34,634 nucleotides of DNA from a virus (taxonomy: Duplodnaviria > Caudoviricetes): IMG/VR virus record IMGVR_UViG_3300033076_001468, positions 1-34,634 of that record. One strand, 5' to 3'. Position numbers and translations under genes: made by a program. Below the pieces are notes generated by a model. It saw only the letters and a program-made list of their open reading frames with translations. It did not search any database and had not been told where the DNA came from. This document shows, one piece after another, positions 1 to 34,634 of this stretch; positions within the stretch are counted from its first letter, which is position 1; each line of letters begins with the position of its first letter.

Positions 1-317
1 AGGCCGAGCAGTGGTGGGACAAGGCCAAGCGACATCGTCAGCAAAAAGCAGCCGTCGCTTACATGCTGCGCCCTCATCGCCATCTTCTTCGCCTTCCTTG
101 TCGGATCGAGCTCATTCGCTTTGCTCCTCGTAAGCTCGACCGCTTCGACAATCTCCCGATGAGCTTAAAATATGTCCTGGACGGCATATGCGAAGTGATT
201 ACTGGCGATTACTGCCCTGGTCGTGCTGATTCCCACGAAGGCTTCGAAGTTAGTTACGATCAGTTTACATCAAAAGAATATTACGTGTTAATAAAAATCA
301 CAAATAAGGAAAAATAA
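1..317 (+). CDS. RusA-like Holliday junction resolvase, 3' part (continues from 34472-34634)
   Basis: The frame is open upstream of the ORF-track ATG at 63 (AEQWWDKAKRHRQQK); LPCRIELIRFAPRKLDRFDNLPMSLKYVLDGI...ADS matches the RusA D-x(1-2)-DN...K...D pattern. Confidence 0.75.
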   Translation, partial: AEQWWDKAKRHRQQKAAVAYMLRPHRHLLRLPCRIELIRFAPRKLDRFDNLPMSLKYVLDGICEVITGDYCPGRADSHEGFEVSYDQFTSKEYYVLIKITNKEK

Positions 318-319
318 AG

Positions 320-601
320 TTGGAAAAAGTTTATTTATTACCAGAGAAGGTTAAAAACGATCCTTTATTGCCATTTGGCGCAAAGATTTTTTATACTGTC
401 CTTACCGACATCATTGGAAAATCCCGCGTACTCGAAACACCCATCGAAGATTTGGCAAAAAAAGAAAGGGTCACTGGAAACACAGTAAGAAGCTGGATCA
501 AGCACCTTGCGGAATGTGGGTATCTCAATGTCGACACAATAAGCACTGGGCATGGGAGAGAGTATCGTTTAAAAATAACATTATTACCGATTGAGCATTG
601 A
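320..601 (+). CDS. Winged helix-turn-helix DNA-binding protein
   Basis: LPFGAKIFY...EDLAKKERVTGNTVRSWIKHLAECGYL resembles HTH_36-type phage wHTH proteins; TTG start after AAGGA. Confidence 0.7.
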   Translation: MEKVYLLPEKVKNDPLLPFGAKIFYTVLTDIIGKSRVLETPIEDLAKKERVTGNTVRSWIKHLAECGYLNVDTISTGHGREYRLKITLLPIEH

Positions 602-876
602 AAATGGATATAACAAACGCAATTAATTTATCTGTTTATCTTAAAAAAGACGAAATAGAAAGATTTAAAGATCTTTTATTAAAAATCTCTGAGTTTGTTT
701 CAATAGAATGCGGAAATGATTCTCCGCACTTGGTTAATGAAACGTTCCTTTTTTTCCTCGCGGCTTTTGCTTTTAGCAACGCCCAAGACAAACGGTTTAC
801 AAAATTAACTCATTTGTCGGCGAAGCACTATCTCGAATATTGTAGAGACATTTGCGAGGAAAACAGGCAAGTTTAG
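598..876 (+). CDS. Hypothetical protein, paralog of 873-1133
   Basis: Coupled to the upstream gene; aligns by eye with the convergent ORF (ETFLFFLA / EALLFFVA; HYLEYC / HFLDYC). Confidence 0.7.
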   Translation: MKMDITNAINLSVYLKKDEIERFKDLLLKISEFVSIECGNDSPHLVNETFLFFLAAFAFSNAQDKRFTKLTHLSAKHYLEYCRDICEENRQV

Positions 877-1133
877 TCTATCTCCGACAATTGCTTACAA
901 TAATCTAAAAAGTGCGCAGCAAGTTTATGAGAAGCTTTCATTACGTACTTTTTTTCTTTAACAGACTCATTTATTAAAGTGGCAACAAAAAACAATAACG
1001 CTTCTGCAAATTCTTGCGGATTTACTTCAGGAAAGTTGGCCGCCATTTCTGTCGCGTAAACAAAAACCTTTCCAAAATCCTTTCTCCCTTTTTCGGAAAC
1101 GTAAATATTTATTTTATCAATCTTCATCGCCAA
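873..1133 (-). CDS. Hypothetical protein, paralog of 598-876
   Basis: Last gene of the leftward operon; its stop codon overlaps that of 598-876. Confidence 0.7.
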   Translation of the reverse strand: MAMKIDKINIYVSEKGRKDFGKVFVYATEMAANFPEVNPQEFAEALLFFVATLINESVKEKKYVMKASHKLAAHFLDYCKQLSEID

Positions 1134-1842
1134 ATATCTCCTTTCTAAGTCTGTCGTGGGTAATTTTATTTACAATCTTTCGTAGTTTTGGGTTTCTTAG
1201 TCTTATAATACCAGCTTTGCATCTTGCGGTGGCGGTTGAAAGACATATTCCAATTGTTTGTGCTACCTGGGCATATGTCATCATTTTCCCGTCAAATAAT
1301 CCATAGCGATATGTTAAAGCAATGGCATAGATGGGATCGATTTTTTCCAGAGCTTCTTTTAAATACTTATGTGGATCTTCTTTTTCGATTTTTCCATAAA
1401 TATCTTTGAGCATCTTTTCTTTCACTCGACTGCGTTTTGTCATTTCATAACCGTCCAAAGTTACGGCTACGTCAAGCTGTTGTGGAACGCCCTTTTTTTT
1501 CAATTCCTCGACAGTTTTTCTCAGTTCAGCCAGCTCTTTTGCCATGAATCTAACTGTCCCGATCAAAGAATCGTCGTGAGCTAATTTTCGCAAGTCTTCT
1601 GAAGCTCTATAGAGGCTTTTGCAGTTTAAGAAAATTTCCTGAACTGCTTTTTTTAGCGCTTCAATGATGTTCAAGTCTTCGTTATTAATAATCAGTTTAA
1701 CGCCATTCTTAAAATGCGCATCGATCGCCCCTTGGGCTAAAGATATGCCCCGAAGAAGTTTTTCGATGTATTCTAATCGGCTTTCCGTTTCTTGATTTTC
1801 AAGCGCCTCCAATCGTGGTAACACATTATAAGGGTCGGTCAT
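1117..1842 (-). CDS. Sigma-70 region-4 domain protein with N-terminal coiled coil
   Basis: C-terminus LEKIDPIYAIALTYRYGLFDGKMMTYAQVAQTIGI...IIRLRNP mirrors the sigma70 r4 pattern (LRFGL.DG...TLEEVG...LRKLRHP); no region 2 visible. Confidence 0.75.
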   Translation of the reverse strand: MTDPYNVLPRLEALENQETESRLEYIEKLLRGISLAQGAIDAHFKNGVKLIINNEDLNIIEALKKAVQEIFLNCKSLYRASEDLRKLAHDDSLIGTVRFMAKELAELRKTVEELKKKGVPQQLDVAVTLDGYEMTKRSRVKEKMLKDIYGKIEKEDPHKYLKEALEKIDPIYAIALTYRYGLFDGKMMTYAQVAQTIGICLSTATARCKAGIIRLRNPKLRKIVNKITHDRLRKEIFGDED

Positions 1843-1972
1843 CTTTTTCCTTTTGTTTTAAATCTTCCAAAGCCTTTTCCGCTTCTTCTTCTGAGTCAAA
1901 GAAGTCTTTCCATGTAAGCTCATATACGTGGATTTTATCGGTTTGCTCATCGATGTGAATCTTGGTGATCAT
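1826..1972 (-). CDS. Small acidic hypothetical protein (48 aa, MITKIHIDEQ...)
   Basis: ATGA overlap with the phosphoesterase stop; the longer 1826-2146 call is probably an over-extension. Confidence 0.55.
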   Translation of the reverse strand: MITKIHIDEQTDKIHVYELTWKDFFDSEEEAEKALEDLKQKEKDDRPL

Positions 1973-2595
1973 AGTACAACTCGTGTAGGGGGATAAATAG
2001 GCTGATACCTTTCGTTCATGATGCTGCAATTGACAAACAGCGTTTCTCCGATTTCTTCTTGTCCATGGGCTTCGTGAATGTGCCCAAAAACATGCAATCC
2101 TGGCGGATCTTCCTTCACTATTCGAGAAAGCTCTCTTGATCCACACCGATCCCCATAAACATTTAGATCCAAGACGCTATATGGCGGGCCATGCGTTACA
2201 AGGATGTCTATGCCTTTTGGTTTTTGGATAAACTTCTTTCTCATCACGGCTTCGCTTCCCGTAAACGCTGCGCAGTGGGGGTTAAGCTCTTTGAAAGAAA
2301 GTGTCCAAGGTGAGCCCCAGATTAAGAGATCGCGAAAGATTGTTACAGAATCGCACAGATATTCGACGCTTGGGTCGTCGACGTAGCGAATGATTTTCGA
2401 GCCGATCAAATAGTTGTCGTGATTACCAGATATCCAGATCTTTTTTTCATATTTCTGCCTAGAAATCCAGCTAATGAATGTTAGATACTCATCGGCCAAT
2501 CCGTGAGCAGCGATATCGCCAGCTACGATCAGAAGATCTCCTTCGTCCAGCTTAGGATAGTGTCCGTGCAGGTCGGCAATGCAATCGATTATCAC
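1969..2595 (-). CDS. Calcineurin-like metallophosphoesterase
   Basis: All motifs present: DLHG, AGDI, GNHD, THGPP, FGHIHE. Confidence 0.93.
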   Translation of the reverse strand: MIIDCIADLHGHYPKLDEGDLLIVAGDIAAHGLADEYLTFISWISRQKYEKKIWISGNHDNYLIGSKIIRYVDDPSVEYLCDSVTIFRDLLIWGSPWTLSFKELNPHCAAFTGSEAVMRKKFIQKPKGIDILVTHGPPYSVLDLNVYGDRCGSRELSRIVKEDPPGLHVFGHIHEAHGQEEIGETLFVNCSIMNERYQPIYPPTRVVL

Positions 2596-2758: not shown

Positions 2759-3043
2759 CTACTGCCAAGCCTTACAGCCACCGCAGCTTGCTTGCCAATT
2801 GTAGTTTGTGGTTCCACATTTTCGGCAAGTCCAGGTATCGCCAGCTCCATCCCAGTGGGTTTTTTCATGATGCGATGCGTTTTCATTTGTCGCAAAGCAG
2901 ATGCCAAATACACAAAAAAACCCCACAATCATCATGATTAGCACTCGAGGGTCAGAATCGCTAATGTTTTTTCTTTTGCTAGAATAAAACTTCTCCTCTT
3001 CCAGCTCGCAATATGTTTTTCTTAATGGTTCTTTTTCTTTCAT
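2759..3043 (-). CDS. Membrane/exported protein with RanBP2-type zinc finger
   Basis: Hydrophobic VLIMMIVGFFCVFGICFA followed by WTCRKCGTTNYNWQASCGGC (W-x-C-x2-C-x3-N-x6-C-x2-C); GGAGG RBS. Confidence 0.7.
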   Translation of the reverse strand: MKEKEPLRKTYCELEEEKFYSSKRKNISDSDPRVLIMMIVGFFCVFGICFATNENASHHEKTHWDGAGDTWTCRKCGTTNYNWQASCGGCKAWQ

Positions 3044-3174
3044 TTTTCCTCCTTTAAAGCATTAATGATTTCATTTAACATTTGTTCTTTATCTTCGGGA
3101 AGCATCCCTATGGATAACTCATGATCCCATTTCTCGAATGTTTCAATTATTTTTTTAATTTGGGTTTTTTCCAT
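3040..3174 (-). CDS. Small hypothetical protein (44 aa, MEKTQIKKIIETFEKW...)
   Basis: Translated by hand; GAGGA upstream; its stop overlaps the ATG of 2759-3043. Confidence 0.55.
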   Translation of the reverse strand: MEKTQIKKIIETFEKWDHELSIGMLPEDKEQMLNEIINALKEEK

Positions 3175-3862
3175 TTAAATCCTCATATAAATGTCTTTTT
3201 AAAGGCCTTTCTAAAGTCAAATGATCCGGATTAAAGCACAATAAATTGCCGCAAGTCGTGAAAACAGGATTAGGCTCGTATGATTCTCCATGTAATAATA
3301 AATACATGCACTTTCTGACGCTCATCCCTTTATTCTTCCAAGAAGTTTTAGGTGTTTTTCCTTTACAGCGATATCCTGTCCATTCCCAACACTCACCATT
3401 CTTTTTCCTAAATTTCAATAGATCTTGATATTTTCTTAAGGACGCTTCTTCAAAAGAAACTTTTTGTCCCCTTCCTTTGTTTTCTTTAGCAATGCATCCA
3501 CAGCTGTGAGGTCTATTTGGACTACAGTATTCAATAAGTTTTCTTCTCGATATTACAGTGAATGCCCCACAATCGCATTTGCATCTCCAAAATGTTCTAT
3601 GATTATATTTGTGGACGTAATCTACAACTTTTAATAATCCTAATTTTTTTCCTATTATGCTAAAATCAATTTCTTGATAGCCCCTACAAGTGTTTTGATG
3701 CGCTTCTTTCGCATCATATGGGCCTTTACATTTTTTAAACTCTCTGTACAAAGTGGTTGTAGCGATTCCAACCATCTCACATATTCTTTTATGAGGTAAA
3801 TTGGAATGCAATAATCCCTCTATCTGTCTTCTATCTTCTAATGTAAGTCTTTTTGAGCTCAT
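3155..3862 (-). CDS. HTH + Cys-cluster + degenerate HNH/His-Cys-box-like protein
   Basis: N-terminal RLTLEDRRQIE...TTTLYREF (HTH_38-like), FWRCKCDCG...SCGC, ECWEWTG...CGNLLCFNPDHL typical of phage homing endonucleases. Confidence 0.75.
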   Translation of the reverse strand: MSSKRLTLEDRRQIEGLLHSNLPHKRICEMVGIATTTLYREFKKCKGPYDAKEAHQNTCRGYQEIDFSIIGKKLGLLKVVDYVHKYNHRTFWRCKCDCGAFTVISRRKLIEYCSPNRPHSCGCIAKENKGRGQKVSFEEASLRKYQDLLKFRKKNGECWEWTGYRCKGKTPKTSWKNKGMSVRKCMYLLLHGESYEPNPVFTTCGNLLCFNPDHLTLERPLKRHLYEDLNGKNPN

Positions 3863-4036: not shown

Positions 4037-4165
4037 CTAAGTCCTTTGCGAGGTGTAAGATGTTACAAAATCCAGTACCTCTTGCAGGGTAATCTTCTTC
4101 GCGATTTCTGGATATTTCTCGTTAAGAAACTTGACGATCACATCCACTAAAGAAAGTTCGTTCAT
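4037..4165 (-). CDS. Small hypothetical protein (42 aa, MNELSLVDVIVKFL...)
   Basis: ATGA overlap with the 4162-4815 stop; translated by hand. Confidence 0.5.
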   Translation of the reverse strand: MNELSLVDVIVKFLNEKYPEIAKKITLQEVLDFVTSYTSQRT

Positions 4166-4815
4166 GAATTTCCCTGAATTTTCAGAAGCATTTGCATGTA
4201 ATAATCAAATATCTCCGCATGGTTTTTTGCATCTTGAAGATAATAATTGTATTTATTCCACATGTTGTATGTTTGGAATCCTTTTTCTACTGAGAATTTA
4301 ATTGTTTCCCACACGGCAGGAAGTAGATAATTTCGCATTCCTCCACCAGGCACGCTTGATACAGAAGCCATTGCAGCCTTGAAAAGGGCTTCCATCGTTC
4401 CATCATAGAGGTTAGCCAAAATAAGCGTGTTTTCCGCTTCTTGCATGCTTACGTCATATGCAGCCCTTTCGTTAATCATATTTTGCAGTAGAATTTCTGC
4501 TTGGCTAGCTTTGAGTATTTTTACGTCTTCCGCGCTTCCATATTTTTCAAAAATGGCTAAATGCTCGAACATGACCTGTTCGTACATTTTCTGCTCAAAC
4601 AATTTTTTAGAATGTATATTCGATTGTTTAATCAAATCAAACTCTTTGTCATACACTAGAAATTTGTTAGCAGGAAAACAAAACCCTTTGTTTGTCTGTA
4701 TTACTCCACCTTTAAGAAAAGTTACAGGATCTGCGTGGAAAAAATCCTCAGCATGTCCATATGAAGCACAGCAAGTATTTAGGCAGAGTAGCGATAAAAT
4801 AATTCCTTTTTTCAT
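4162..4815 (-). CDS. Exported helical protein with signal peptide
   Basis: MKKGIILSLLCLNTCCASYGHA-E signal peptide; helical C-terminal part. Confidence 0.75.
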   Translation of the reverse strand: MKKGIILSLLCLNTCCASYGHAEDFFHADPVTFLKGGVIQTNKGFCFPANKFLVYDKEFDLIKQSNIHSKKLFEQKMYEQVMFEHLAIFEKYGSAEDVKILKASQAEILLQNMINERAAYDVSMQEAENTLILANLYDGTMEALFKAAMASVSSVPGGGMRNYLLPAVWETIKFSVEKGFQTYNMWNKYNYYLQDAKNHAEIFDYYMQMLLKIQGNS

Positions 4816-4816
4816 A

Positions 4817-5086
4817 TTAATTTCCTTCTCCCTCGTATTCGGCAGCCCACTTACCGCCTTCTAAATAAGCTTCTCCCTCAATGTGATTAAGTTCCTCTGG
4901 CATAGGTTGATCATCACTTCCATTCACCCATGCATCGTGGTCTTCTTGCCAGCTTTTTCCGCCGTATTCATAGCCGTCTCTTGCTACTTTGCATGTAGCC
5001 ATGTAGGCATCTCCAACTTGTGCATGTCCATAAAAAGCGCAGAATGCATTCAAACAAAATAGCGATAAAATAATAGTCCTTTTCAT
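4817..5086 (-). CDS. Small exported acidic protein with signal peptide
   Basis: MKRTIILSLFCLNAFCAFYGHA-Q; AGGAGG RBS. Confidence 0.75.
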   Translation of the reverse strand: MKRTIILSLFCLNAFCAFYGHAQVGDAYMATCKVARDGYEYGGKSWQEDHDAWVNGSDDQPMPEELNHIEGEAYLEGGKWAAEYEGEGN

Positions 5087-5164
5087 TTAGCCTCCTTTTT
5101 TCACAAGATTCTTGGGTCCTTGTGATGACTCCATTATTTATGTTTGTACATCGGATGTTTAGGA

Positions 5165-5698
5165 TCAACTGGCGATGGCGTATCCAAAAGATTGAGCATC
5201 CATCTCAACAGTCTTTTCATCTGTTTCTCCTATATAGTTTTGAATTCCTAGTTCTAAAAGAACTTCTCCCCATTCTCTAAAAAGAGGCTGTGAGCATAGA
5301 TTAAATATTACTGAACCCATCACCGAACAGAGTCCAAATGTCCTATTCACGGGAAGAAAAAGTTTATATTTTATCCCAGAGTTGAATAGGATTTCTTCGA
5401 TTTCAATCCAAAAAATGAGAACATCCATTTCATCGTCATTGGTTTCGCACCCCATCTTCGCAAGTTCATATCGTGCATTGCTAGCGCATTCCTCCATGTC
5501 AAATCGTGCATTCAAAAACTTTTCGAGTTCACTCTTCATCATGACGAATCTTTTTACCACTCGCTGGTTATAAGATCCCTCTGTCTCCATAAAATTTTTG
5601 AGGCTTTTCTCTAAATTTTTTAACTCTTTATCCTCTTCGGCGCTGCAAAACATTGGTACTATGAGGGCGCATAGAATAAAAATAATTTTTTTCTTCAT
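5165..5698 (-). CDS. Exported hypothetical protein with signal peptide
   Basis: MKKKIIFILCALIVPMFCSA-EE; AAGGA RBS. Confidence 0.75.
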   Translation of the reverse strand: MKKKIIFILCALIVPMFCSAEEDKELKNLEKSLKNFMETEGSYNQRVVKRFVMMKSELEKFLNARFDMEECASNARYELAKMGCETNDDEMDVLIFWIEIEEILFNSGIKYKLFLPVNRTFGLCSVMGSVIFNLCSQPLFREWGEVLLELGIQNYIGETDEKTVEMDAQSFGYAIAS

Positions 5699-5910: not shown

Positions 5911-6360
5911 ATGACAGATAGATCCGTAGCAGGGGTAAAAGCAAAAAGACCGCGTGGTCGTCCTAAAGAGTATGATTACACTGTTGTAATGAAGGAATTA
6001 GATGAATGGTCAAAGCTTGATGATTCGATAAACATTGTTGGCTTTTGCGCTTCTCACGGATATCTTGCCGATGTTATTAGGCGAATGATTCGCGACTATG
6101 AGGACTTTGAAAACACTTATCTTCTTGCTAAAATGCGTCTTGCAGATCGTCGTGAAAAGCTTCTTAACTCAGAAAAACTCAATTACGGTTCATGGAATCG
6201 TTATCAGAAAATGTTTGATCCTTTCTTGGATAAATTTGAAGAAAAGGAAAAAGACAGAGACATGAAGCGCAAAATGGCTTCTCTAAAGCAAGACGATATT
6301 GTAAACCTAGCTACCATGGCAAAGCTTTTTGCAGATGGTAAAATTTGTCAATCTGAGTAA
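5911..6360 (+). CDS. terS: Terminase small subunit
   Basis: N-terminal RGRPKEYD motif; lies directly before the large subunit with TAATG overlap. Confidence 0.8.
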   Translation: MTDRSVAGVKAKRPRGRPKEYDYTVVMKELDEWSKLDDSINIVGFCASHGYLADVIRRMIRDYEDFENTYLLAKMRLADRREKLLNSEKLNYGSWNRYQKMFDPFLDKFEEKEKDRDMKRKMASLKQDDIVNLATMAKLFADGKICQSE

Positions 6361-7859
6361 TGTCGATCAACGATCAAAGCTGGCGTCTCAACAATCTTTA
6401 TCGCATCATTGACAAGAATTCCAACTCGATTCCGTTTAGGATGAATCGTGTTCAGGAAGATGTTCTCGATAATCTTCACAATCGAAACTTAATCCTTAAG
6501 GCTAGACAGCTTGGAATGTCTACTTTTGCGATTTTATACCTGCTCGACAGTGTATTATTTAATTTTAATTTGTCGGCTGGTATCGTGTCGTATTCCCTGG
6601 AACATGCACAATATATTTTCGGCAGGATCATTGGCCACGCTCTTGATACGTTACCGCCTACACTTAAAGGGCGTCTTGGAATTGTGCGAAGATCGGCCCG
6701 TGAGATATGTTTTGACAATGGTTCTTCACTCCGTGTTGATACTACCTTGCGTGGTGGCAGTTACCCTCTTGTGCTCGTATCTGAATTTGGTAAAACATGC
6801 GCTAGAAATCCCCAAAAGGCTGAAGAGGTCATTACAGGAACTCTACAGGCTGTACCAATAGATGGAACGATTATTATTGAGAGCACAGGGGAAGGGAATG
6901 ACGGCTTCTTTGCTCAGATGGTTACCGAAGCTTCTCGCCGTGGTAACGATGATTTGTCATCATTGGACTATCGTTTATTTTTTTACCCATGGATGGATGA
7001 GCCTTCTTATTGTGTGTTTGAAACAAATATTCGCTACGATGTTTCCTTGACGGATTATTTTGATAAGATAGAAAGGGAAACGGGAAGAACGATATCTCAG
7101 GCGCAGCGTAATTGGTATTCTGTCCAGCAAGTGACGCTTGGTGATAAAATCAAACAAGAGTTTCCGAGCACTGTTTCAGAGGCATTTTTGGCCTCTAGCG
7201 ATGCTTTCTATTTTGCAGATGCAATTTCTAAAGCCTATGATTCCAACCGATGTATTTATACAGACATTTATGATGCATTGCTTCCCGTTTATGTTGCCAT
7301 GGATATTGGGGTTAACGATTTAACTGTGATGGCATTTTTTCAGATCAATCATGGGGAGATTCGCATTATTGACTATTATGAGGACAAAAATAAGGGTGTA
7401 GATTTTTATGCACAATTTCTTCTCAATGACAAGAAATATGTCTATCACACCATCTTTTTACCTCATGATTCTGCAAAACGTAATCCACTTGATGTACTTA
7501 ATTCTTATGATCGCGATTTTCGCCGTCTTTTTAGTCATACCAACACTCGCTTTCATGTGCTTAAAAGGATGGATCGTCAGCTTTCTATTTCGCACTCAAA
7601 AATAATGCTTAATCGCTGCATTTTTAATGTCTCAAAAGTTAAAAACTTCCTCGATCCGGTCGCTAAATACCGAAAAGTTTGGCATGAGCCTACAGGAAGA
7701 TATTTAGAAGATCCTTATCATAATGAAGCTTCAAATTATGCTGACTGTTTTCGCTATGTTTGCCAAGCTGTGGGGCATTTAGAGTCCGCCTCTTCTCTCG
7801 ATTCTCGCCTAGAAAAGCACAAAGTCATCACTGATGCGCGCACACGGCGCGTAATTTAA
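6360..7859 (+). CDS. terL: Terminase large subunit
   Basis: Walker A ILKARQLGMST, Walker B LVLVSEFG, coupling motif IESTGEG, nuclease AMDIGVND...LPHD...NYADCFRY. Confidence 0.95.
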   Translation: MSINDQSWRLNNLYRIIDKNSNSIPFRMNRVQEDVLDNLHNRNLILKARQLGMSTFAILYLLDSVLFNFNLSAGIVSYSLEHAQYIFGRIIGHALDTLPPTLKGRLGIVRRSAREICFDNGSSLRVDTTLRGGSYPLVLVSEFGKTCARNPQKAEEVITGTLQAVPIDGTIIIESTGEGNDGFFAQMVTEASRRGNDDLSSLDYRLFFYPWMDEPSYCVFETNIRYDVSLTDYFDKIERETGRTISQAQRNWYSVQQVTLGDKIKQEFPSTVSEAFLASSDAFYFADAISKAYDSNRCIYTDIYDALLPVYVAMDIGVNDLTVMAFFQINHGEIRIIDYYEDKNKGVDFYAQFLLNDKKYVYHTIFLPHDSAKRNPLDVLNSYDRDFRRLFSHTNTRFHVLKRMDRQLSISHSKIMLNRCIFNVSKVKNFLDPVAKYRKVWHEPTGRYLEDPYHNEASNYADCFRYVCQAVGHLESASSLDSRLEKHKVITDARTRRVI

Positions 7860-7924: not shown

Positions 7925-10096
7925 ATGTCGACAGATATAGAGATTCGTGGCGAGTTTTTAGAGAATTATCGGTATGCCCATGACTTTTGGGCTCCCTTTG
8001 TAAAAGATGCGCAGGTTTATACGCTTGCGGCATCTGGTTATACGTGGAGTGATGAAGAGCGCAAGATATTAATCAAAGAAGGCAGAGAGCCTCTTGAATT
8101 AAATATCATGCGCAGACCTCTCCAGTTCTTTTCGGGCTATCTTAGGGATAATATCAATGAGATTATCTATTCACCGATGGAGGGATCGGATAAAGAAACT
8201 GCGGATCAGTTTACAAAGCTTTCTTACTATATTTGGGATAAGGGGCATGGATTTCCCGTATTTTTAGATGCGTGTGACGAGGCTTTTAAATCGGGTATTT
8301 CTCTTTGCGGCATCCAAATGGATTACACCAAGGATTTCGTTAATGGGGATATTTCCTTTTACAAGCGATGCTACAATCAATTTTATCTTGATCCTACCTT
8401 TACCGAGATTTCGCTTAAGGATTGTTCTTTTGCTATTACTCGCGATCTTATTGACAAGCAGTATGCAAAGCAGCTTTTGCCCTATATTCCGCCAGAAGAG
8501 ATCGATCAGCTTTCCATGGGATACAGGGATGACAAGTTTCTGCAATATCACCCTGAATTTACCACATTCTCTCGAAATCGAAACTTAATCGCCTACGATC
8601 AGTATTACAAGCGTGTCACGAGAAAGAGAAAATTTCTCATAGACATGCGTTCTAATTATTACCGAGATATAACGGATTTATCAGACGAGGAGATTCGCAA
8701 GCTTAAGATGGGAATTAAGCGTTTGCGCGAGCTTCGTCGTGATGCTGATGAGCTTGGCATTGATGAAAACGAAATTCCCGATGTTGAGATTCGCGACGTT
8801 GACAGGTCTTTCATTGAGTTGAATGTGCTTCTCAATGGTCATCGTATGTTTGTTGGTGATGATAAAACGGGAATTAATCAGACCTATCCATTTGTTCCAA
8901 TCATTTGTTATATGGAGCCATCTATTTGGATGCCTTCACAGCGTATCCAGGGGATAGCTTCTTGCAATTGGTCGGCTCAGCGTCAGTTTAATAAGCGCCA
9001 CATGAAGATCGTCGACATGATGGATTCGGATATTTCGACTGGTTTCAAATATATGATCGGGTCAGTTGCAGACCCATCTGATCTTCAACAATCGGGACAA
9101 AACAAAATTATTGGTATTGATCCAGAAAATGCACCCGCAGGCATGGATTCTGTTCAGCAGCTCAATGGCGGAGGAGCAAATCCAGCATTGATCCAGTATC
9201 AGCAGGTGCTCGATCAACTGACGCTCACTCTTTCTAACGTAACAGAGTCTTCACTTGGGATTGATGAGAAAGGAAATACGCAAGTTTCTGGTCGTTTAGC
9301 GCAGGTTCGCATTGCTCAAGGTCTTCGTGGAAATAGAAAGATTTTTGACAACGTTGAAACATCTCAGCAGCTTCTCGGGGGACTTATTCTTACAGCCATC
9401 CAAGAAAATTATTCTCCTGGGAAAGTGGAACGCATTCTCAATGAAAAGCCGACAGATCAATTTTATGAAAGAGAATTTGAGCAATACAACGCAGTGATTA
9501 AAGAGGGCGTGCGCTCCAAGTCTCAGCAAGATGCTTACTACTATGAGTTGGTTCAGCTTAAGAAAGATGGCGTCGTCAATGTTCCTGAGCCTGAAATTGT
9601 CCGCGCACTTTCGATGTCTGGCATTCAGGATCTTGAAAAAGCTATCGAATCTCAATCGCAGATGGTTTCGGCAAAGGCTGCGCAAGCTATGGAAGCAGAA
9701 AAACTCAAAATGGAAGTTCTCAACGCGACAAAAGAAGAAAAACTGGGTCTTGCGAAGGAAAGAGAGTCTCGCGTTGCAAGCAATTTATCACTCAAAGACG
9801 AAAGAGAATCCGAGGCGCAGCAAAATATTGCTCAGGCTGCCTTGGATCGAGCGAGAGCTATCACGGAAATTGCGAAGCTTAATGAAGATCGCATCATGAA
9901 GGTTCTTGAATTCGTGAATGCTCTTGAAAAAGAAGAAGCGGTTGGAAGAGAGGCGCAAAAAGCGCAAGTAAGCAATCAAGCCGACCAGATTTATCACGAC
10001 GTGGACACATCCTACGATCGTTCGCAGGCTGTTGACCAGATGAGTCAGGCGCAAGATCAACAAAGCATTATGCAGCATGTAAACCAAGGGGGATAA
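7925..10096 (+). CDS. Portal protein, P22-like
   Basis: 723 aa after terL; W...ER..L...GR.PL..N motif, YPFVPII, QRQFNKR, SGRLAQVRIAQG, long C-terminal coiled-coil barrel. Confidence 0.9.
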   Translation: MSTDIEIRGEFLENYRYAHDFWAPFVKDAQVYTLAASGYTWSDEERKILIKEGREPLELNIMRRPLQFFSGYLRDNINEIIYSPMEGSDKETADQFTKLSYYIWDKGHGFPVFLDACDEAFKSGISLCGIQMDYTKDFVNGDISFYKRCYNQFYLDPTFTEISLKDCSFAITRDLIDKQYAKQLLPYIPPEEIDQLSMGYRDDKFLQYHPEFTTFSRNRNLIAYDQYYKRVTRKRKFLIDMRSNYYRDITDLSDEEIRKLKMGIKRLRELRRDADELGIDENEIPDVEIRDVDRSFIELNVLLNGHRMFVGDDKTGINQTYPFVPIICYMEPSIWMPSQRIQGIASCNWSAQRQFNKRHMKIVDMMDSDISTGFKYMIGSVADPSDLQQSGQNKIIGIDPENAPAGMDSVQQLNGGGANPALIQYQQVLDQLTLTLSNVTESSLGIDEKGNTQVSGRLAQVRIAQGLRGNRKIFDNVETSQQLLGGLILTAIQENYSPGKVERILNEKPTDQFYEREFEQYNAVIKEGVRSKSQQDAYYYELVQLKKDGVVNVPEPEIVRALSMSGIQDLEKAIESQSQMVSAKAAQAMEAEKLKMEVLNATKEEKLGLAKERESRVASNLSLKDERESEAQQNIAQAALDRARAITEIAKLNEDRIMKVLEFVNALEKEEAVGREAQKAQVSNQADQIYHDVDTSYDRSQAVDQMSQAQDQQSIMQHVNQGG

Positions 10097-10732: not shown

Positions 10733-11389
10733 ATGGAAAACGAAGTTGAGGAAGCCGTAGAGCCTCACATTGAGGAGATTGTTGAAGAAGCAGTGGTCGA
10801 TCAGGCTGTTGATTCTGATGAATCTGTTCAAGAAACTGCTGAGAAGCCAAAGAAAACGATGGTTCCTTTGTCTGCTTTGCAGAAAGAAAGAGAGAAAAAG
10901 AAAGAGCTTGAATTAGAGCTTGCTTATGAGCGTCGCATGAATCAACAGCGTGCGCAACAAGCGGCTCCGCAGCAAGAGGATGATGCTTCTCGTTATGAGT
11001 CTGCGACTCGTGAAGAGGTGATGGCCTCTCAAGCTCAAACCATTCGTGCCGTAGAAGAAAGGATCTGGATTAGGCAGAATCCCGAAAAATACGAACGCGT
11101 GATGGGAGAATTGTCAACATTTTTAAAACAAAGACCTAATCTCGCGAGGGCTATCGAAGAGTCTCCAAACAGATACGAAGAGGCATATACGCTTATGGAT
11201 GCACTAACGGCTAAACAGCAGATGCAATTAAAAAAAGACTCCGTGCCGCAGGAAAAAAAGAAACCTGCGCCCAATTCTCCTAGCGGAGTCCCCAAGGCTG
11301 CTGCTTTAAATGATGCCGTGGATCTTATGAGCATGTCTGACTCTGAGTTCGCTGCTTGGAGAAAGTCGAAGCAAAAAGCTCGCAGATAG
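10733..11389 (+). CDS. Capsid scaffolding protein
   Basis: Acidic N-terminus, MVPLSALQKEREK coiled coil, C-terminal MSDSEFAAWRK; directly upstream of the capsid gene. Confidence 0.8.
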   Translation: MENEVEEAVEPHIEEIVEEAVVDQAVDSDESVQETAEKPKKTMVPLSALQKEREKKKELELELAYERRMNQQRAQQAAPQQEDDASRYESATREEVMASQAQTIRAVEERIWIRQNPEKYERVMGELSTFLKQRPNLARAIEESPNRYEEAYTLMDALTAKQQMQLKKDSVPQEKKKPAPNSPSGVPKAAALNDAVDLMSMSDSEFAAWRKSKQKARR

Positions 11390-11403
11390 GCTGAAGGAAA
11401 ACT

Positions 11404-12336
11404 ATGTCAGTAACTACAACATCAGGCTATGGCTCGATGTCTGACCGCTGGGCGCATAGAGCCTTGCTTCAGAGATCTAAGCCTCGTTGTGTTCATAATC
11501 TCTTTGGACGTGCGTTTACGCTTCCCCAAAAGAATACGGACACTATGGCCTTTAGAAGACAGGAAAACTTAAATTCTGATCCTGTCGTGCTTTCTCAAGA
11601 TGCTGATCCAGCACCAGAGCAGGTACAAAAATTCGATATTAACGTAACGATCCAGGAATTCGGCAAGGTCGTTCTTCTGGGTAGAAAAGTGCTTCTCGTC
11701 GTCGAGGATGACACAGCTTCTGAAACAGCGGATAACCTTTCACAGTGTATGCACACTATGCTAGACAAGGTTACACGCGATGTTTGGGATGCTTCTGTTC
11801 CTCAGATTTCATGTCTAAACGGAGCTAATGGTAACGCAATTACCGAGCTTACACAGGCTGATATCAATCGAGCTATTCAATATCTCGATGATAACGATAC
11901 TGAGAAGATGACCCCTACCATTGAAGGAACATCACGCTTTGGTACAGGGCCCGTGGAGCCTGGTTTTTGGGTTACTGCACACGTTAACCTCAAGCCAGAT
12001 ATTCGAAACATTGACTCCTTTGTTCCAACTTCTCAATACGGTTCTCAAGAGCCTGTATTGCAAGCTGAGTTTGGTGCAACGGATGAAGCTCGCTGGGTAA
12101 CATCTACACTCGTTAAGTATTCTGCGACAAATCCTGTCGTTTACAACAACACTTTCGTTGGAGCAAACGCTTATGGTTATGTCGGATTGGATGAAGTTTC
12201 TACAGAGATGATCTTGAAACCTCTTGGTTTTAATGATTATCTCAATAGATTCCAGTCTATGGGCTTCACAGCATGGTTCAATGCAGCCATTCTGGATGAT
12301 TCCCACATCGTAACTCTTTTATCAACTAAAGGTTAA
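11404..12336 (+). CDS. Major capsid protein (N4-gp56-like HK97 fold)
   Basis: LPQKNTDTMAFRR, DINVTIQEFG, EFGATDEARWV, VVYNNTFVGANAYG patterns; size and position fit. Confidence 0.88.
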   Translation: MSVTTTSGYGSMSDRWAHRALLQRSKPRCVHNLFGRAFTLPQKNTDTMAFRRQENLNSDPVVLSQDADPAPEQVQKFDINVTIQEFGKVVLLGRKVLLVVEDDTASETADNLSQCMHTMLDKVTRDVWDASVPQISCLNGANGNAITELTQADINRAIQYLDDNDTEKMTPTIEGTSRFGTGPVEPGFWVTAHVNLKPDIRNIDSFVPTSQYGSQEPVLQAEFGATDEARWVTSTLVKYSATNPVVYNNTFVGANAYGYVGLDEVSTEMILKPLGFNDYLNRFQSMGFTAWFNAAILDDSHIVTLLSTKG

Positions 12337-23020: not shown

Positions 23021-23179
23021 TTACTTTCTTTCCTTAAGTAAATCGATGAACATTTCATAAAGCTTGTCCGTCCTCTGTCCTTGTCTTTCTATTTTTCCAT
23101 CTAAGAGATAGAATCCACCCAAAAGAGTGATGAATAGAACTAGAAACTCTATGAGTGATATTATGTGAGTTAAATCCAT
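23021..23179 (-). CDS. TM peptide (52 aa) ending RTDKLYEMFIDLLKERK
   Basis: AAGGAGG RBS; MDLTHIISLIEFLVLFITLLGGFYLL TM helix; not in the ORF track. Confidence 0.75.
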   Translation of the reverse strand: MDLTHIISLIEFLVLFITLLGGFYLLDGKIERQGQRTDKLYEMFIDLLKERK

Positions 23180-23180
23180 G

Positions 23181-23348
23181 TTATTTATCCTCCTTGATGT
23201 TTTGATTCTTTATCTGATTGATCTTGTCGATGATCGCTAGACGGATAAATTCACCCATTGTCTTTTTCGTCAAAACACACATAACTTTAAGCTCTGTATG
23301 TAGGTGTGGTGTGATTTGAAACGTAGTAGTTAAATGTCTTTTTTCCAT
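23181..23348 (-). CDS. Ribbon-helix-helix regulator (Arc/Mnt/ParG-like, 55 aa)
   Basis: MEKRHLTTTFQITPHLHTELKVMCVLTKKTMGEFIRLAIIDKI: beta strand plus two helices, RHH pattern; not in the ORF track. Confidence 0.7.
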   Translation of the reverse strand: MEKRHLTTTFQITPHLHTELKVMCVLTKKTMGEFIRLAIIDKINQIKNQNIKEDK

Positions 23349-25896: not shown

Positions 25897-25897
25897 T

Positions 25898-29564: not shown

Positions 29565-29783
29565 ATGGACGAACCCACACACAGAATTGTTAACGGAATG
29601 CGCGTTGAACTCACCAAAGACGAGTGCATCTCGATTAAAAAAGATTGGGAAGAAAATATGGTCAAGGCAAACGAAGAACAGGAAAAGATTCGTCTTGAAG
29701 AACAAAAAAATCAACAGATTCGAGAATCTATGGCCAAACTTTTAGGAGTATCCGTAGAAGATATCAATAAAGCTCTATTTTGA
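29565..29783 (+). CDS. Small fibre-associated/chaperone-like protein
   Basis: AAGGAG RBS; IVNG.RVELT..E and KLLGVS..DI..L pattern common after fibre genes. Confidence 0.6.
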   Translation: MDEPTHRIVNGMRVELTKDECISIKKDWEENMVKANEEQEKIRLEEQKNQQIRESMAKLLGVSVEDINKALF

Positions 29784-29972
29784 GTCAGAAGGCGTAATAT
29801 CGATCTTCATTCCCGTCTCGGCTTCGATCATCTCCTCGATCTTCACTTCGATGATATTATTATCTCCCAGGATTAAGATAGACGCATAAGCCATCAAAAT
29901 CCCAATAGCAATAATCAGCAAAAAGAACCATTTTATTTTAAGAGCGCTCTCGATGATTTCTTGCGGTATCAT
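29775..29972 (-). CDS. Single-TM membrane protein
   Basis: WFFLLIIAIGILMAYASILILG followed by acidic DNNIIE...ETGMKIDITP. Confidence 0.7.
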   Translation of the reverse strand: MIPQEIIESALKIKWFFLLIIAIGILMAYASILILGDNNIIEVKIEEMIEAETGMKIDITPSDSK

Positions 29973-30164: not shown

Positions 30165-31034
30165 TTATTTTTTATCAATAAAAATTGTCCAGGATTCGGA
30201 AGGACTGCCACGATATTCTTCGAGATTAACAGACTTTAGCTCGGGTATGTCATCATAGCACACTCTGCCTCGTACTACTTTCTTCATGACCTTAACCCCC
30301 CCACCGATCGAACTTTCCCCTTGGCACATCTCGATCAGCTTCTTACGATGCGTTTCCTTCAAAGCCTCGAGCTTCTTGATCTGTTCGCAAACATTGCGAT
30401 ATTCTTCCGCTATGTCAGAAAATATGACATTATCGATCTCTCGATAGTCTTTGTTCGTCATAGGAGGAGCATCGAAGAATATGATGCGATCCCAAAACTT
30501 TTTCGCCTCTGGAATATATTTCTCAAAGAAGCTTTGATCTGGCAATACTTCAATAATCTTAAGATCCCCGTTATTATATGAGAGATAATAGGCTTTCTCC
30601 ACCTGTCCATCTGTGCAAAGAAGTTGATGCTGAATCTGCATCATGTGAAACTCTGGTAAACTTCCATCTTCCAAGCCAAAATGGTACTGCGCTCCGTTAG
30701 ACTTGATCTCGATGATATATTTCCCGCAAGAGCTAATGCCATCTAGAGAAGCAGCCAAGAAAGGAAATCTTCCACTGGTGATGCAGCAAGGGTGGAAATC
30801 TATGCCTGTCTTTTCGACAAACATCTTCCTAACGATAGGCTCATCAGCATGACCTCTAAGCATTGCTGAATTAACCGCCTGCTCTTGAGCCAAACCGAGT
30901 TTTCTTTGCCAACCTTTATAAGGAGTACAATAGGGCGATGCACCCAAAAGCATGGGCGCATCTGTTGCGGTAAGATGAGTTTTCCTCCAATCGAGCCACT
31001 CTTGAGAACCTTGATCTAAATCGACAATCTTCAT
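30165..31034 (-). CDS. YqaJ-like (lambda exo family) recombination exonuclease
   Basis: QGSQEWLDWRK..LTATD, RGH..EP, LAASLDG...IEIK, Q.QHQL. Confidence 0.93.
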   Translation of the reverse strand: MKIVDLDQGSQEWLDWRKTHLTATDAPMLLGASPYCTPYKGWQRKLGLAQEQAVNSAMLRGHADEPIVRKMFVEKTGIDFHPCCITSGRFPFLAASLDGISSCGKYIIEIKSNGAQYHFGLEDGSLPEFHMMQIQHQLLCTDGQVEKAYYLSYNNGDLKIIEVLPDQSFFEKYIPEAKKFWDRIIFFDAPPMTNKDYREIDNVIFSDIAEEYRNVCEQIKKLEALKETHRKKLIEMCQGESSIGGGVKVMKKVVRGRVCYDDIPELKSVNLEEYRGSPSESWTIFIDKK

Positions 31035-31663
31035 GATATTTTTACCTGTTCAATGGATTTAACTGCGCCTTCAAAAGCTGCATACACCTTCGTAAAAGAA
31101 TCTTCCAGAACATCTTCTACCCTTGAGAATCCAATCTTCTTAAGCCAAGCATGCACTTTAACTCGAACCTCTTCTGTAAACTTGGCATCAAGGCTCTTAA
31201 GAATAGATACCTCTTCTAGACTTATTTTCTTCTTAGGCTTAGAAGGTTCTTCTTCTTTCTGCTTACCTCTTCCCATGGCTGTCTCTGCGTCATCATCATG
31301 ATCATCATCAGCTACAACGCCGATCATCGCTGATAAAGAATAACGTTTGGCATATGTCACGGCAGAACCTAAAGCTTGGGGAAGATCCAGATTTTTACCC
31401 ATGATGGGATAGTAACTCTTGATCCACTGGCCAGAAATGTGCGCAAGCATCGTAACCAAATACAGCTTGTCATTCATGGTTTCGCAAAACTGCATCACAG
31501 ATAAGCCATTTTCACACAAGGGCTGACGGCATGCTTCCATGACTGACAAAAAATCAGCGTATCTCGTCAAATGACTCTTCTTGTTAAACTTCGCTGGCTG
31601 AATAGCATTTTGCGCCTTCGCCAACGCTGCCACCAACTCTTTAATATCTTCTGTTTGATTCAT
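31031..31663 (-). CDS. erf: ERF-family single-strand annealing protein
   Basis: LVAALAKAQ...YADF, H.SGQWI, QALGSAVTYAKRYSLSAMIGV..DDD; start at ATG 31663. Confidence 0.92.
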   Translation of the reverse strand: MNQTEDIKELVAALAKAQNAIQPAKFNKKSHLTRYADFLSVMEACRQPLCENGLSVMQFCETMNDKLYLVTMLAHISGQWIKSYYPIMGKNLDLPQALGSAVTYAKRYSLSAMIGVVADDDHDDDAETAMGRGKQKEEEPSKPKKKISLEEVSILKSLDAKFTEEVRVKVHAWLKKIGFSRVEDVLEDSFTKVYAAFEGAVKSIEQVKIS

Positions 31664-31677
31664 AATCTGTTCTCCTA

Positions 31678-31860
31678 TTACCAAGTTAAACCTAAACACC
31701 ACATGCAGTTGCCACATTCGCAACGCACTCTACTTACCCTTATCTCTTCCTCATCACAAAAATCAAAGAACTGATCTTCATCAAAAGGTTCACACAAGAC
31801 ACCATGCATTTCATCAAGCTCCTTCCTGCTGAATTGCTGCCAATATGTTGTTACCGCCAC
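31678..31860 (-). CDS. Small Cys-containing early protein (GTG start)
   Basis: AAGGAGG RBS before GTG 31860; C-terminal CECGNCMWC. Confidence 0.6.
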   Translation of the reverse strand: MAVTTYWQQFSRKELDEMHGVLCEPFDEDQFFDFCDEEEIRVSRVRCECGNCMWCLGLTW

Positions 31861-33010: not shown

Positions 33011-33061
33011 CTCCTATTCTAGCTCAACAAGTTATTAAACGCAATAACTTTGGAGCTACCA

Positions 33062-34042
33062 ATGTCTGAAAGATTCATAAAATTCATCCCATCCGAAGAA
33101 GCATTCTGGTTAATGCAGAAAAAACCTAACGCTTTTTATCTACTAACGCACATAGCAAATACCGCCAGACGATACGAAGGTCACCCCGATGGATTGTCTG
33201 TTGGCCAATGTCATCTAAAATCAGCAGAAAAATACGGTTTTACAATCGGGCAATATCGCGCCGCGAAAAACATTCTCGTGAAAAGAAAACATATCGAAAT
33301 CACCGAGACTAACAGAAATCGCAAAAAGTCGACCACTGGAACGACAACTGTTTCAACACTAGTTCGCCTTTGTAGTTCAACTGTTTATGACATAAACCAA
33401 GAATCGAACGACAACCGAAACGACAACCGAACGACAACTGAACGACAACAAACAAGAAAGAATAAGAAAGAAAAAGAAGATCTCTCTCCCTACCCTCTCT
33501 CTTTCGATCCAGCTTCGCAGGATCAAAAGATTTCGGGCAGTCCGATCGATCAGGGTGAGAGATCTTTTTCAGCAAATAAACAAAAAAAACCTGGGGAAAA
33601 CCCTCTGATACACATCTATGAGCACGTCTACATGACCGAGGATATGCTCAACGAGTGCATTTCGATACGCGGCTCTAGGGAAGATGTCGACAAAGCCGTG
33701 GAACTCATCTCGAGAAAAGCCAAGTACAGCATCAAGGACTGGCCTAGCGCATTGCGGACGTGGAAGGTCGATGACAGCGTTCAGACGAACTCGCAGAGAA
33801 ACACCGATCTCGCGGAGAAGCTGATCAAGCGCTATGAAAACTACTCCGACGGCAATGGTTATCGCTGCAGGCATTACCGAGACAGGGTCAAAGACCAGAT
33901 TGGGGTGCTTTTTGAGGCCGATTCGCCTTACGTTGCTCCGACATTTTTTGCTCTGAGCGATGGCAGGTTTTACGAGAAGGTTACGCAGTTTCAATCCGTC
34001 AAAAAAATGTCAAAAGGTTCAACAGCGGCTAAAAAGGGTTGA
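33062..34042 (+). CDS. Replication initiator (lambda O-like organisation)
   Basis: FIKFIP...NAFYLLTHIA N-terminal wHTH, low-complexity linker encoded by iterons, IKDWPSALRTW C-terminal motif; GGAG RBS before ATG 33062. Confidence 0.75.
   Translation: MSERFIKFIPSEEAFWLMQKKPNAFYLLTHIANTARRYEGHPDGLSVGQCHLKSAEKYGFTIGQYRAAKNILVKRKHIEITETNRNRKKSTTGTTTVSTLVRLCSSTVYDINQESNDNRNDNRTTTERQQTRKNKKEKEDLSPYPLSFDPASQDQKISGSPIDQGERSFSANKQKKPGENPLIHIYEHVYMTEDMLNECISIRGSREDVDKAVELISRKAKYSIKDWPSALRTWKVDDSVQTNSQRNTDLAEKLIKRYENYSDGNGYRCRHYRDRVKDQIGVLFEADSPYVAPTFFALSDGRFYEKVTQFQSVKKMSKGSTAAKKG
33340..33480 (+). repeat. Iterons and A-rich tract (putative phage ori) inside the initiator gene
   Basis: AACGACAAC at 33340, 33407, 33419, 33430 and 33441, followed by purine-rich AAACAAGAAAGAATAAGAAAGAAAAAGAAGA. 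Confidence 0.75.
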
Positions 34043-34092
34043 AGAAAATTTTTGCAAGGGGTAAATATGCCCAACAAAACCAAGGAGTTTTT

Positions 34093-34413
34093 ATGACAAA
34101 AATTGAGTTTGTTTCTCATGATGAATTTCCCGAGGATGAGTACACAAAAGAGCTTGTGTACCTATCTCTGGATGGGAAATACCGCGTTGCATACATCCGA
34201 AAAAAAATGCAAAACGGAGGTATGTTTTGGAGTGTTGCAAGCATTGGCGCGACAAGGCACGGAAAGAAAGAGTTTTTTCCAGCGTTTCTCCAGGACTCGA
34301 ACTTTTTGGAAAAGGACATCAAGGACTTTTTGGAAAAGCGAAAGTGGGAAACGAGTGTGCATAAACCGACATCGATGAGCGAGGTGGCTGAACAAAGCGA
34401 CCTACCCTTTTGA
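34093..34413 (+). CDS. SpoVG/PC4-like putative ssDNA-binding protein with SSB-like DLPF tail
   Basis: AAGGAG RBS; RKKMQNGGMFW...GKKEFFPAF beta hairpins; acidic C-terminus EQSDLPF. Confidence 0.6.
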   Translation: MTKIEFVSHDEFPEDEYTKELVYLSLDGKYRVAYIRKKMQNGGMFWSVASIGATRHGKKEFFPAFLQDSNFLEKDIKDFLEKRKWETSVHKPTSMSEVAEQSDLPF

Positions 34414-34471
34414 ACATGCCGAAATTTCGCATTTTAAGGCACCAAGGTCAAAAGATCTCGGGGGGGTCTGT

Positions 34472-34634
34472 ATGGACATAGCTCCCCCCTCAAAAAATAA
34501 CGAAATTGGGCCTCTAAATAAGTTTTTAAAATTTAAGGAGGGTTATGTCGAAATCTGCATTCCTTTGTTCACTGCATCGGAAGCGAATGGAGGGGTTAAA
34601 AAATCGTATCGCAGCGGAGGAAAAACTCGGTACA
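34472..34634 (+). CDS. RusA-like resolvase, 5' part (joins 1-317; 159 aa in total if ATG 34472 is the start)
   Basis: EICIPLFTASEAN...RYK|AEQWWDKAKRHRQQK reads through the window junction. Confidence 0.7.
   Translation, partial: MDIAPPSKNNEIGPLNKFLKFKEGYVEICIPLFTASEANGGVKKSYRSGGKTRY

What the first reader, a model, noticed from the sequence alone, without database searches (positions are those of the whole stretch)
1..34634. Possible tailed dsDNA phage of environmental Chlamydiae (PVC)
Established: the isolated chlamydiaphages are ssDNA Microviridae, and many Chlamydiae have reduced peptidoglycan. Seen: no endolysin, several signal-peptide cargo genes, a cluster of basic histone-like proteins, eukaryote-associated folds (RanBP2 zinc finger, E1-FCCH). 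From memory, not verified: TM-coiled-coil peptides ending in DFHGRLCAIEE and RxDxLYxMFIDLLK resemble hypothetical proteins of environmental chlamydial genomes. The host assignment is inference only.
Basis: inference. Interest (0 to 1): 0.7.

Follow-up and report, generated by a model that had tools for sequence, protein, structure and literature searches.

The report
Lysin-less podovirus sharing genes with chlamydiae
This complete 34.6-kb phage genome, predicted to be short-tailed, has no detectable cell-wall-cutting enzyme, and several of its regulatory and tail-fibre gene families have their closest named relatives on plasmids of environmental chlamydiae, so it likely infects these bacteria, which grow only inside amoebae and other eukaryotic cells.

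Summary
The window is a circularly complete 34.6-kb phage genome (the ends join inside one gene) with terminase, P22-type portal and N4-gp56 capsid. It belongs to a large uncultured clade (169 IMG/VR capsid matches). Three common lysin families were found in 0 of 33 related records. The host was tested indirectly. Of 6 window proteins searched against 72,556 plasmids, 3 had their best match on environmental chlamydial plasmids (tail fibre, Cro-like regulator, one weak membrane peptide), 2 had none and 1 was generic. Four preselected genes of close relatives also matched Criblamydia or Simkania best, mostly by wide margins. Rhabdochlamydia plasmids carry arrays of the same fibre modules. Against: no prophage or spacer link was found; chlamydial and Babelota chromosomes could not be searched; the only genome-bin labels are Patescibacteria (3) and Bacteroidales (1), the two inspected on phage-only contigs. 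Chlamydiota host about 75%. Tailed prophage genes on chlamydial plasmids are already published, and this scan reported a lysin-less podovirus of chlamydiae earlier on another genome (e1-10428789).

The parts
1..317 (+). C-terminal half of a RusA-like nuclease gene (name from a recalled motif) that continues from the window's right end
   Evidence: Joined ends give one open frame of 190 codons, 51% identical over 176 aa to G003 and G004 proteins, one gap
1117..1842 (-). Coiled-coil protein with a sigma-70 region-4-like C-terminus
   Evidence: Weak NCBIfam sigma hits, E 6e-5 at best; 2 of 15 relatives
1969..2595 (-). Metallophosphoesterase
   Evidence: PF00149 E 8e-13
2759..3043 (-). Membrane-anchored protein with a RanBP2-type Cys4 pattern
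   Evidence: Pattern and hydrophobic stretch; no Pfam hit
3155..3862 (-). HNH homing endonuclease
   Evidence: phrog_826 E 9e-11
4162..5698 (-). Three strain-specific cargo genes with signal-peptide-like starts
   Evidence: 0 of 15 relatives; 4162 has 2 unnamed homologs; shared 5' repeats
5911..7859 (+). Putative small terminase (by position) and large terminase
   Evidence: TerL phrog_2 E 1e-20; TerL in 15 of 15 relatives
7925..10096 (+). P22-like portal
   Evidence: PF16510 E 1e-44
10733..12336 (+). Putative scaffold (by position) and N4-gp56-family major capsid protein
   Evidence: TIGR04387 over cut-off; 169 IMG/VR matches, the 80 kept at 84-97% identity
12352..13470 (+). Two related virion genes, the first with an E1_FCCH domain
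   Evidence: PF16190; homologs in 82 and 80 of 82 capsid loci
14628..15656 (+). Cluster of small lysine-rich proteins
   Evidence: phrog_2423; not Hc1
13920..22141 (+). Putative short-tail adaptor/nozzle (13920, 16317) and three putative DNA-ejection proteins (18743, 19375, 20555); roles inferred from size and position
   Evidence: 13920, 16317 and 18743 in 15 of 15, 19375 in 14 of 15, 20555 in 4 of 15 relatives; no tape-measure, tube or sheath hit
22291..23348 (-). Operon of small membrane/coiled-coil peptides (including the DFHGRLC family, 22669-22863) and a small regulator
   Evidence: 299 homologs; ESM Atlas clusters 100% viral; partial profile match to Simkania pSn SNE_RS00040
23459..25228 (+). 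Tail fibre/spike with a K1-lyase_C-type tip
   Evidence: PF24146 E 5e-9; same domain in a Rhabdochlamydia porcellionis plasmid gene
26554..28647 (+). Tail fibre with a repeated stalk motif and a T4 gp9/gp10-type terminal domain
   Evidence: 3 of 6 plasmid matches chlamydial, best E 9e-11; model pLDDT 88 matches CBA120 TSP4, E 2e-5
29775..29972 (-). Small membrane protein shared with the Criblamydia phage-plasmid
   Evidence: Whole-collection E 0.2; family profile E 6e-12
30165..31723 (-). YqaJ exonuclease and ERF recombinase
   Evidence: PF09588, PF04404
31976..32182 (+). Cro-like HTH regulator, divergent from the recombination genes
   Evidence: Best plasmid match Simkania pSn SNE_RS00045, E 5e-9, 1 of 8 records; profile also hits Protochlamydia and Criblamydia plasmids
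33050..34042 (+). Putative replication initiator (by position)
   Evidence: 6 of 15 relatives; no family hit
34039..34413 (+). Putative single-strand-binding protein with an acidic C-terminal tail
   Evidence: Profile match to Criblamydia phage-plasmid HXH92_RS00180, E 8e-6

Best explanation
The window is a complete dsDNA phage genome, predicted to be short-tailed, with no detectable endolysin, from a large uncultured clade that likely infects environmental Chlamydiota (Parachlamydiales). Likely cycle, all steps inferred: the fibres bind the free elementary body; the phage enters the protist or arthropod cell with it; it ejects its DNA through a short tail using three internal proteins; it replicates lambdoid-style (initiator, ERF/YqaJ, RusA-like nuclease) in the dividing form; it packages DNA through a P22-type portal; and it leaves without a murein hydrolase, likely by small membrane proteins damaging a cell with little peptidoglycan. 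This member has no integrase; some relatives carry one or a ParA, which would let phage genes settle on chlamydial plasmids.
For: (1) Search of 72,556 plasmids with 6 window proteins: best match chlamydial for the fibre (3 of 6 records), the HTH and 29775 (weak, E 0.2); no match for 2; YqaJ generic. (2) Four genes of relatives with 86-95% identical capsids, picked because they had hit chlamydial plasmids locally, were also best chlamydial in the whole collection: methylase 514 vs 322 bits, DUF1064 125 vs 100, Bet 213 vs 116, and a tail protein matching only Criblamydia. (3) 355 protein families from 16 genomes against 443 kb of chlamydial plasmid and 308 kb of control plasmid DNA (controls picked as next-best hits): 25 families hit, 16 best chlamydial (12 exclusively), 9 best control. 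(4) For proteins from 80 metagenome loci and 5 distant genomes, 53 of 55 with a hit were best chlamydial against the first three controls. (5) Nine chlamydial fibre-end domains fall at three places among 29 phage copies. (6) Simkania pSn 6836-8615 has a membrane peptide, a Cro-like HTH and a divergent Bet; L176 has the same HTH-Bet arrangement. (7) No lysin: 0 of 33 records for three families, none among 150, 150 and 142 accessory proteins scanned; the Criblamydia myophage also showed none in its annotation or in 31 proteins scanned. (8) Shine-Dalgarno-like motifs before 356 of 697 ATG genes vs 10% background argue against Bacteroidota.
Against: No integrated copy was found: the GTDB capsid scan gave 2 contigs, labelled Bacteroidales and Parcubacteria, none chlamydial; two more NCBI capsid records are labelled Patescibacteria. 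None of 80 metagenome peptide loci lay on a contig over 41.5 kb. The plasmid collection gave no Babelota or Patescibacteria hit and probably holds few or none of their plasmids, so 'best hit' cannot rank those hosts. The fibre-end domain also occurs on a cyanobacterial plasmid, which outscored the chlamydial copies with the window's family profile (81.9 vs 76.8 bits), and it is a gp9/gp10-type connector fold, not a proven receptor-binding tip. The DFHGRLC motif itself is absent from the chlamydial plasmids fetched. The strongest single matches come from relatives, not from the window. A lysin of an unknown family cannot be excluded.
Confidence: 0.75

Rival explanations
1. The host is another obligate intracellular bacterium of protists, Babelota (Dependentiae) first, and the chlamydial matches come from a gene pool shared inside amoebae.
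For: Lack of a lysin fits any wall-poor intracellular host. The relatives' ParA and serine recombinase score best on a Ca. Megaera plasmid. Chlamydiae and Babelota co-occur in protists (PMC12644861, passages).
Against: Matches of 57-61% identity to Simkania and Criblamydia elements, spread over three chlamydial families, need frequent exchange with chlamydial elements. No Babelota sequence was seen in any call.
Confidence: 0.12
2. The host is a Patescibacteria (CPR) bacterium.
For: Three capsid records carry Patescibacteria labels; the fibre stalk repeat occurs in large proteins of 7 of 401 Patescibacteria genomes.
Against: The one contig inspected (12.9 kb) holds a run of this clade's virion genes; the other two are 26 and 38 kb, phage-sized. 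In 401 genomes the capsid matched closely only that same bin (3 of 401 in all, others 21-29%), the peptide profile gave 2 weak hits, one on a coiled coil of an unrelated 349-aa protein and one at E 3.5e-4, and no hit covered the fibre-end domain.
Confidence: 0.07
3. The host is a free-living bacterium (Bacteroidota or other) and the phage uses a lysin too divergent to detect.
For: A 33-kb contig with a 95% identical capsid is binned as Bacteroidales; a cyanobacterial plasmid carries the fibre-end domain.
Against: That contig is phage-sized with 28 of 58 genes behind Shine-Dalgarno-like motifs; 1 of 401 Bacteroidota genomes, that bin, has the capsid. No isolated phage exceeds 26% capsid identity.
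Confidence: 0.06

Closest known systems
Prophage gene set on the Criblamydia sequanensis plasmid NZ_LK031773 (the 'phage group' of chlamydial plasmid genes, PMC7846284)
   Same: Tailed phage of an environmental chlamydia; shares fibre domains, a small membrane protein, an SSB-like gene and an HTH with the window, and methylase, DUF1064, RecT-like and tail genes with relatives; no lysin detected.
   Different: It has contractile-tail genes (DUF3383, baseplate, spike) and a DUF2184 capsid and lives on a plasmid; the window has a P22-type portal, N4-gp56 capsid, no long-tail genes and no integrase.
Chlamydiamicrovirus (Microviridae, Gokushovirinae)
   Same: The described phages of Chlamydia (PMC8936141 and PMC5010888, passages); same need to reach a host inside a eukaryotic cell.
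   Different: Small tailless ssDNA viruses of Chlamydiaceae; the window is a 34.6-kb tailed dsDNA genome.
Salmonella phage P22 and other podoviruses with a P22-type portal and lambdoid early genes
   Same: Portal family, ERF recombinase, divergent early control, inferred ejection proteins.
   Different: Different capsid family, no integrase, no holin-endolysin-spanin cassette detected.
Earlier scan finding e1-10428789 (37.7-kb lysin-less podovirus, another genome)
   Same: Size class, lack of lysin, proposed chlamydial host.
   Different: Not retrieved by the window's capsid or peptide sequence, so at most a distant relative; its prophage claim was not checked here.

Membership tests
Caudoviricetes | Large terminase, portal and HK97-lineage major capsid protein | tested here: met
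   phrog_2, PF16510, TIGR04387; capsid fold taken from family membership, not modelled
Podovirus morphotype | No tape measure, tail tube or sheath genes | tested here: met
   0 of 58 proteins hit such families; genome circularly complete
Podovirus morphotype | Short tail seen by electron microscopy | not testable with these tools
   No isolate
P22-like phages (Lederbergvirus) | P22 coat protein, integrase and lysis cassette | tested here: not met
   N4-gp56 capsid; no integrase or lysin in the window
Chlamydiamicrovirus | Small ssDNA genome with a microvirus capsid and Rep | tested here: not met
   34.6 kb with terminase and portal
Criblamydia plasmid myophage group | Contractile tail and DUF2184 capsid | tested here: not met
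   Capsid, portal and terminase profiles gave no hit on that plasmid
Phage of Chlamydiota | Prophage flanked by chlamydial chromosome genes, or spacer match | not testable with these tools
   No Chlamydiota genome could be opened; the GTDB capsid scan finds close relatives only and gave none chlamydial
Phage of Chlamydiota | Accessory and host-contact genes closest to chlamydial mobile elements | tested here: met
   limited by which phyla have plasmids on record
Chlamydial histone-like Hc1 | PF07432 match | tested here: not met
   0 of 1 record
Pgp3 N-terminal domain | PF20858 over its cut-off and whole-domain match | tested here: inconclusive
   21.1 bits vs cut-off 27; PDB E 0.04-0.06; 42-45 columns at 43-45% identity, E 1.7-2.7; an extended profile missed Pgp3

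The most novel reading that the evidence does not exclude
This is a member of an abundant, worldwide family of lysin-less podoviruses of environmental chlamydiae, and its tail-fibre genes are the source of chlamydial plasmid surface genes: the seven-gene array on the Rhabdochlamydia porcellionis plasmid and, through a shared fibre-stalk repeat, the N-terminal domain of the Chlamydia plasmid protein Pgp3.
Probability: 0.25. Interest if true: 0.85.

Novelty: new variant of a known kind. Interest (0 to 1): 0.62.

Why it matters
The described phages of Chlamydia are small ssDNA microviruses; tailed ones appear in the papers read only as prophage gene sets on two plasmids and one region in a genome bin. 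A large free-living tailed clade would add a widespread predator of protist and arthropod symbionts, offer a route for the gene flow seen on chlamydial plasmids, and give a testable case of phage exit without a murein hydrolase. The fibre-plasmid link bears on where chlamydial plasmid surface genes came from.

Tried and rejected
Taxon names from protein collections: peptide 22669 (299 homologs, the only organism name 'uncultured Caudovirales phage'), capsid (Patescibacteria labels only), 4162 (2 unnamed homologs). ESM Atlas: nearest clusters viral, no host taxa. Metagenome scan with P0101 for a host-flanked prophage: 80 loci, longest contig 41.5 kb, no clear host housekeeping genes among those scanned. 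Integrases of G006 and G014 are not Pgp7/8-like (best E 0.02). Window 23459 vs Simkania SNE_RS00590 gave no significant pairwise match, though a relatives' family did. Fibre end vs isolated phages: only a 37-residue match to Synechococcus phage S-CBS3. Whole fibre and a C1q-tipped fibre vs PDB: no Pgp3. Sequencing runs: 20 listed, no RNA holder listed; none laid. No tRNA. Sigma region-4 tree, k-mer host prediction, co-abundance and spacer matching were not run. E1-FCCH, RanBP2 and basic proteins rejected as host markers. Paper searches listed no paper whose title or abstract describes this clade.
Full report
What the window is. It is an IMG/VR virus record, classed linear and 95% complete. Its two ends join into one open frame of 190 codons that aligns at 51% over 176 residues with proteins of two relatives, so the genome is circularly complete. 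Among 58 called proteins are a large terminase, a P22-type portal, an N4-gp56-family capsid, YqaJ and ERF recombination proteins, an HNH nuclease, a phosphoesterase and a Cro-like HTH. No tape measure, tube, sheath, integrase or lysin was hit; a short tail is inferred from that. The capsid has 169 confirmed matches in IMG/VR (80 kept, 84-97% identical) and a 369-member cluster, while isolated phages reach only 26%. Fifteen near-complete relatives share the virion block.

The missing endolysin holds: three lysin families were found in 0 of 33 records in six frames with working controls, and none appeared among 150, 150 and 142 accessory proteins scanned in Pfam (these were subsets of the families called, chosen by size and coding score). 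The basic proteins, the E1_FCCH domain, the RanBP2 pattern and the signal-peptide-like genes exist but do not point to a host: the basic proteins are not Hc1 and one is a common phage family; the FCCH gene has homologs in 82 of 82 capsid loci; the RanBP2 gene and the three cargo genes are in 0 of 15 relatives. The DFHGRLC peptide is a large viral family; only its N-terminal half matches a Simkania plasmid protein.

Host evidence. Chlamydial chromosomes could not be opened, so I used the 72,556-record plasmid collection, where environmental chlamydiae are a tiny share. Of 6 window proteins, the fibre 26554 matched 6 records, 3 chlamydial with the best E-values; the HTH matched Simkania pSn best of 8; 29775 matched the Criblamydia plasmid weakly; two had no match; YqaJ matched 1,145 records, the 25 listed all non-chlamydial. 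Four genes from relatives, preselected by local hits, were again best chlamydial: methylase 59% (514 vs 322 bits), DUF1064 61% (125 vs 100), Bet 57% (213 vs 116) and a tail protein found only on the Criblamydia plasmid. With profiles of all 355 families from 16 genomes, 25 hit either 443 kb of chlamydial or 308 kb of control plasmid DNA: 16 best chlamydial, 9 best control. Both sets were chosen partly from earlier hits, so this is not an unbiased rate. Nine chlamydial copies of the fibre-end domain fall at three places among 29 phage copies, the single cyanobacterial copy unresolved among them (39 rows). On the R. porcellionis plasmid, six of seven similar-sized genes at L086 141-7284 match the clade's two fibre types. 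The Criblamydia plasmid carries a myovirus-like gene set with no lysin detected.

Evidence against. The GTDB scan found the capsid on 2 contigs, labelled Bacteroidales (33 kb) and Parcubacteria (12.9 kb); both hold runs of this clade's virion genes. Two further NCBI records are labelled Patescibacteria. I read these as misbinned phage contigs: the capsid was found in 1 of 401 Bacteroidota and, closely, 1 of 401 Patescibacteria genomes, each time the same bin, and Shine-Dalgarno-like motifs precede 356 of 697 ATG genes against 10% background (that Bacteroidota lack them is recalled). No prophage with host flanks was found. The fibre-end domain is a T4 gp9/gp10-type fold as in CBA120 TSP4 and also lies on a cyanobacterial plasmid that outscored the chlamydial copies with one profile. 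Babelota remain untested.

How it likely works. Shown: genome organisation, gene families, absence of known lysins and of an integrase. Inferred: binding to elementary bodies and carriage into the eukaryotic host (as recalled for chlamydiamicroviruses), ejection through a short tail, lambdoid replication, and exit by small membrane proteins; the Atlas's automatic name 'putative holin' for the peptide's nearest cluster is a lead only. Some environmental chlamydiae do have peptidoglycan sacculi (recalled), so exit without a lysin is not yet explained. Among the relatives' accessory families scanned, two tyrosine integrases, one serine recombinase and a ParA family in two genomes were seen, which would allow temperate or plasmid states and explain phage remnants on chlamydial plasmids.

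Pgp3 lead. A profile of the fibre stalk repeat built from 10 phage sequences ranked the three Pgp3 entries first among 177,635 PDB sequences (E 0.04-0.06), and the model aligned to Pgp3 over 42-45 columns at 43-45% identity and 2.2-2.5 A, with non-significant E-values. The region was chosen after a weak Pfam Pgp3_N hit, an extended profile missed Pgp3, and the repeat also occurs in 7 of 401 Patescibacteria genomes. It is suggestive only.

What is known. PMC7846284 (passages) describes a phage gene group on the Criblamydia and P. massiliensis plasmids; its data files were not read and may list shared families. PMC5010888 (passages) reports a terminase island and CRISPR spacers without matches in Protochlamydia; the spacers were not compared here. 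PMC5654357 (passages) lists one prophage region in a Parachlamydia bin. PMC12644861 (passages) reports unclassified viruses predicted for Chlamydiales. PMC8936141 (passages) lists only chlamydiamicroviruses. PMC9723776 (passages) has no mention of phage in its main text on Rhabdochlamydia plasmids. Eight searches (listings only for the rest) showed no description of this clade. This scan noted a similar phage earlier on another genome (e1-10428789), unreviewed and not independent support.

Verdict. A real, complete, lysin-less phage of a large uncultured clade; Chlamydiota host about 75%; new variant of a known kind; interest 0.62.

Noticed in passing
L086:141-7284 (R. porcellionis plasmid NZ_CP075586) and L087:153-5143: Tandem arrays of hypothetical genes that match this clade's two fibre types (gp9/gp10-type end and K1-lyase_C end); look like domesticated tail-fibre modules.
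   Followed up: partly
L125:5723-6742 (G006, capsid 95%): Cargo protein with a glycine-rich hydrophobic stretch and a weak U-box match (E 6.5e-4), near a XerC-like integrase; U-box proteins are typical of amoeba symbionts (recalled).
   Followed up: no
L177:4836-5252: Tandem HTH_17 protein whose architecture recalls the chlamydial regulator Euo (recalled, not tested).
   Followed up: no
L084:6836-8615 (Simkania pSn): Membrane peptide, Cro-like HTH and divergent Bet: looks like a remnant of this clade's early module.
   Followed up: partly
L143:109-5232 (G016): 1,708-aa protein with an LPD38 domain; the putative ejection proteins vary strongly in size across the clade.
   Followed up: no
L109:4729-5802, L097:1858-3474, L096:12450-13715: Fibres with C1q-domain tips in distant relatives.
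   Followed up: partly
window:24014-24877 and 27371-28130: Internal duplications of 300 and 169 nt inside the two fibre genes.
   Followed up: no
window:4789-5876: Four copies of a 35-nt motif; three lie at the starts of the cargo genes, the fourth upstream of them.
   Followed up: no
L156:6767-7921, L232:534-1505, L115:3081-3833: RtcB and RNA ligases in distant relatives, suggesting repair of host-cut tRNA.
   Followed up: no
G026, G028, G029, G030, G034: Capsid matches in pieces or with stops; LAGLIDADG/HNH genes in these records hint at introns.
   Followed up: no
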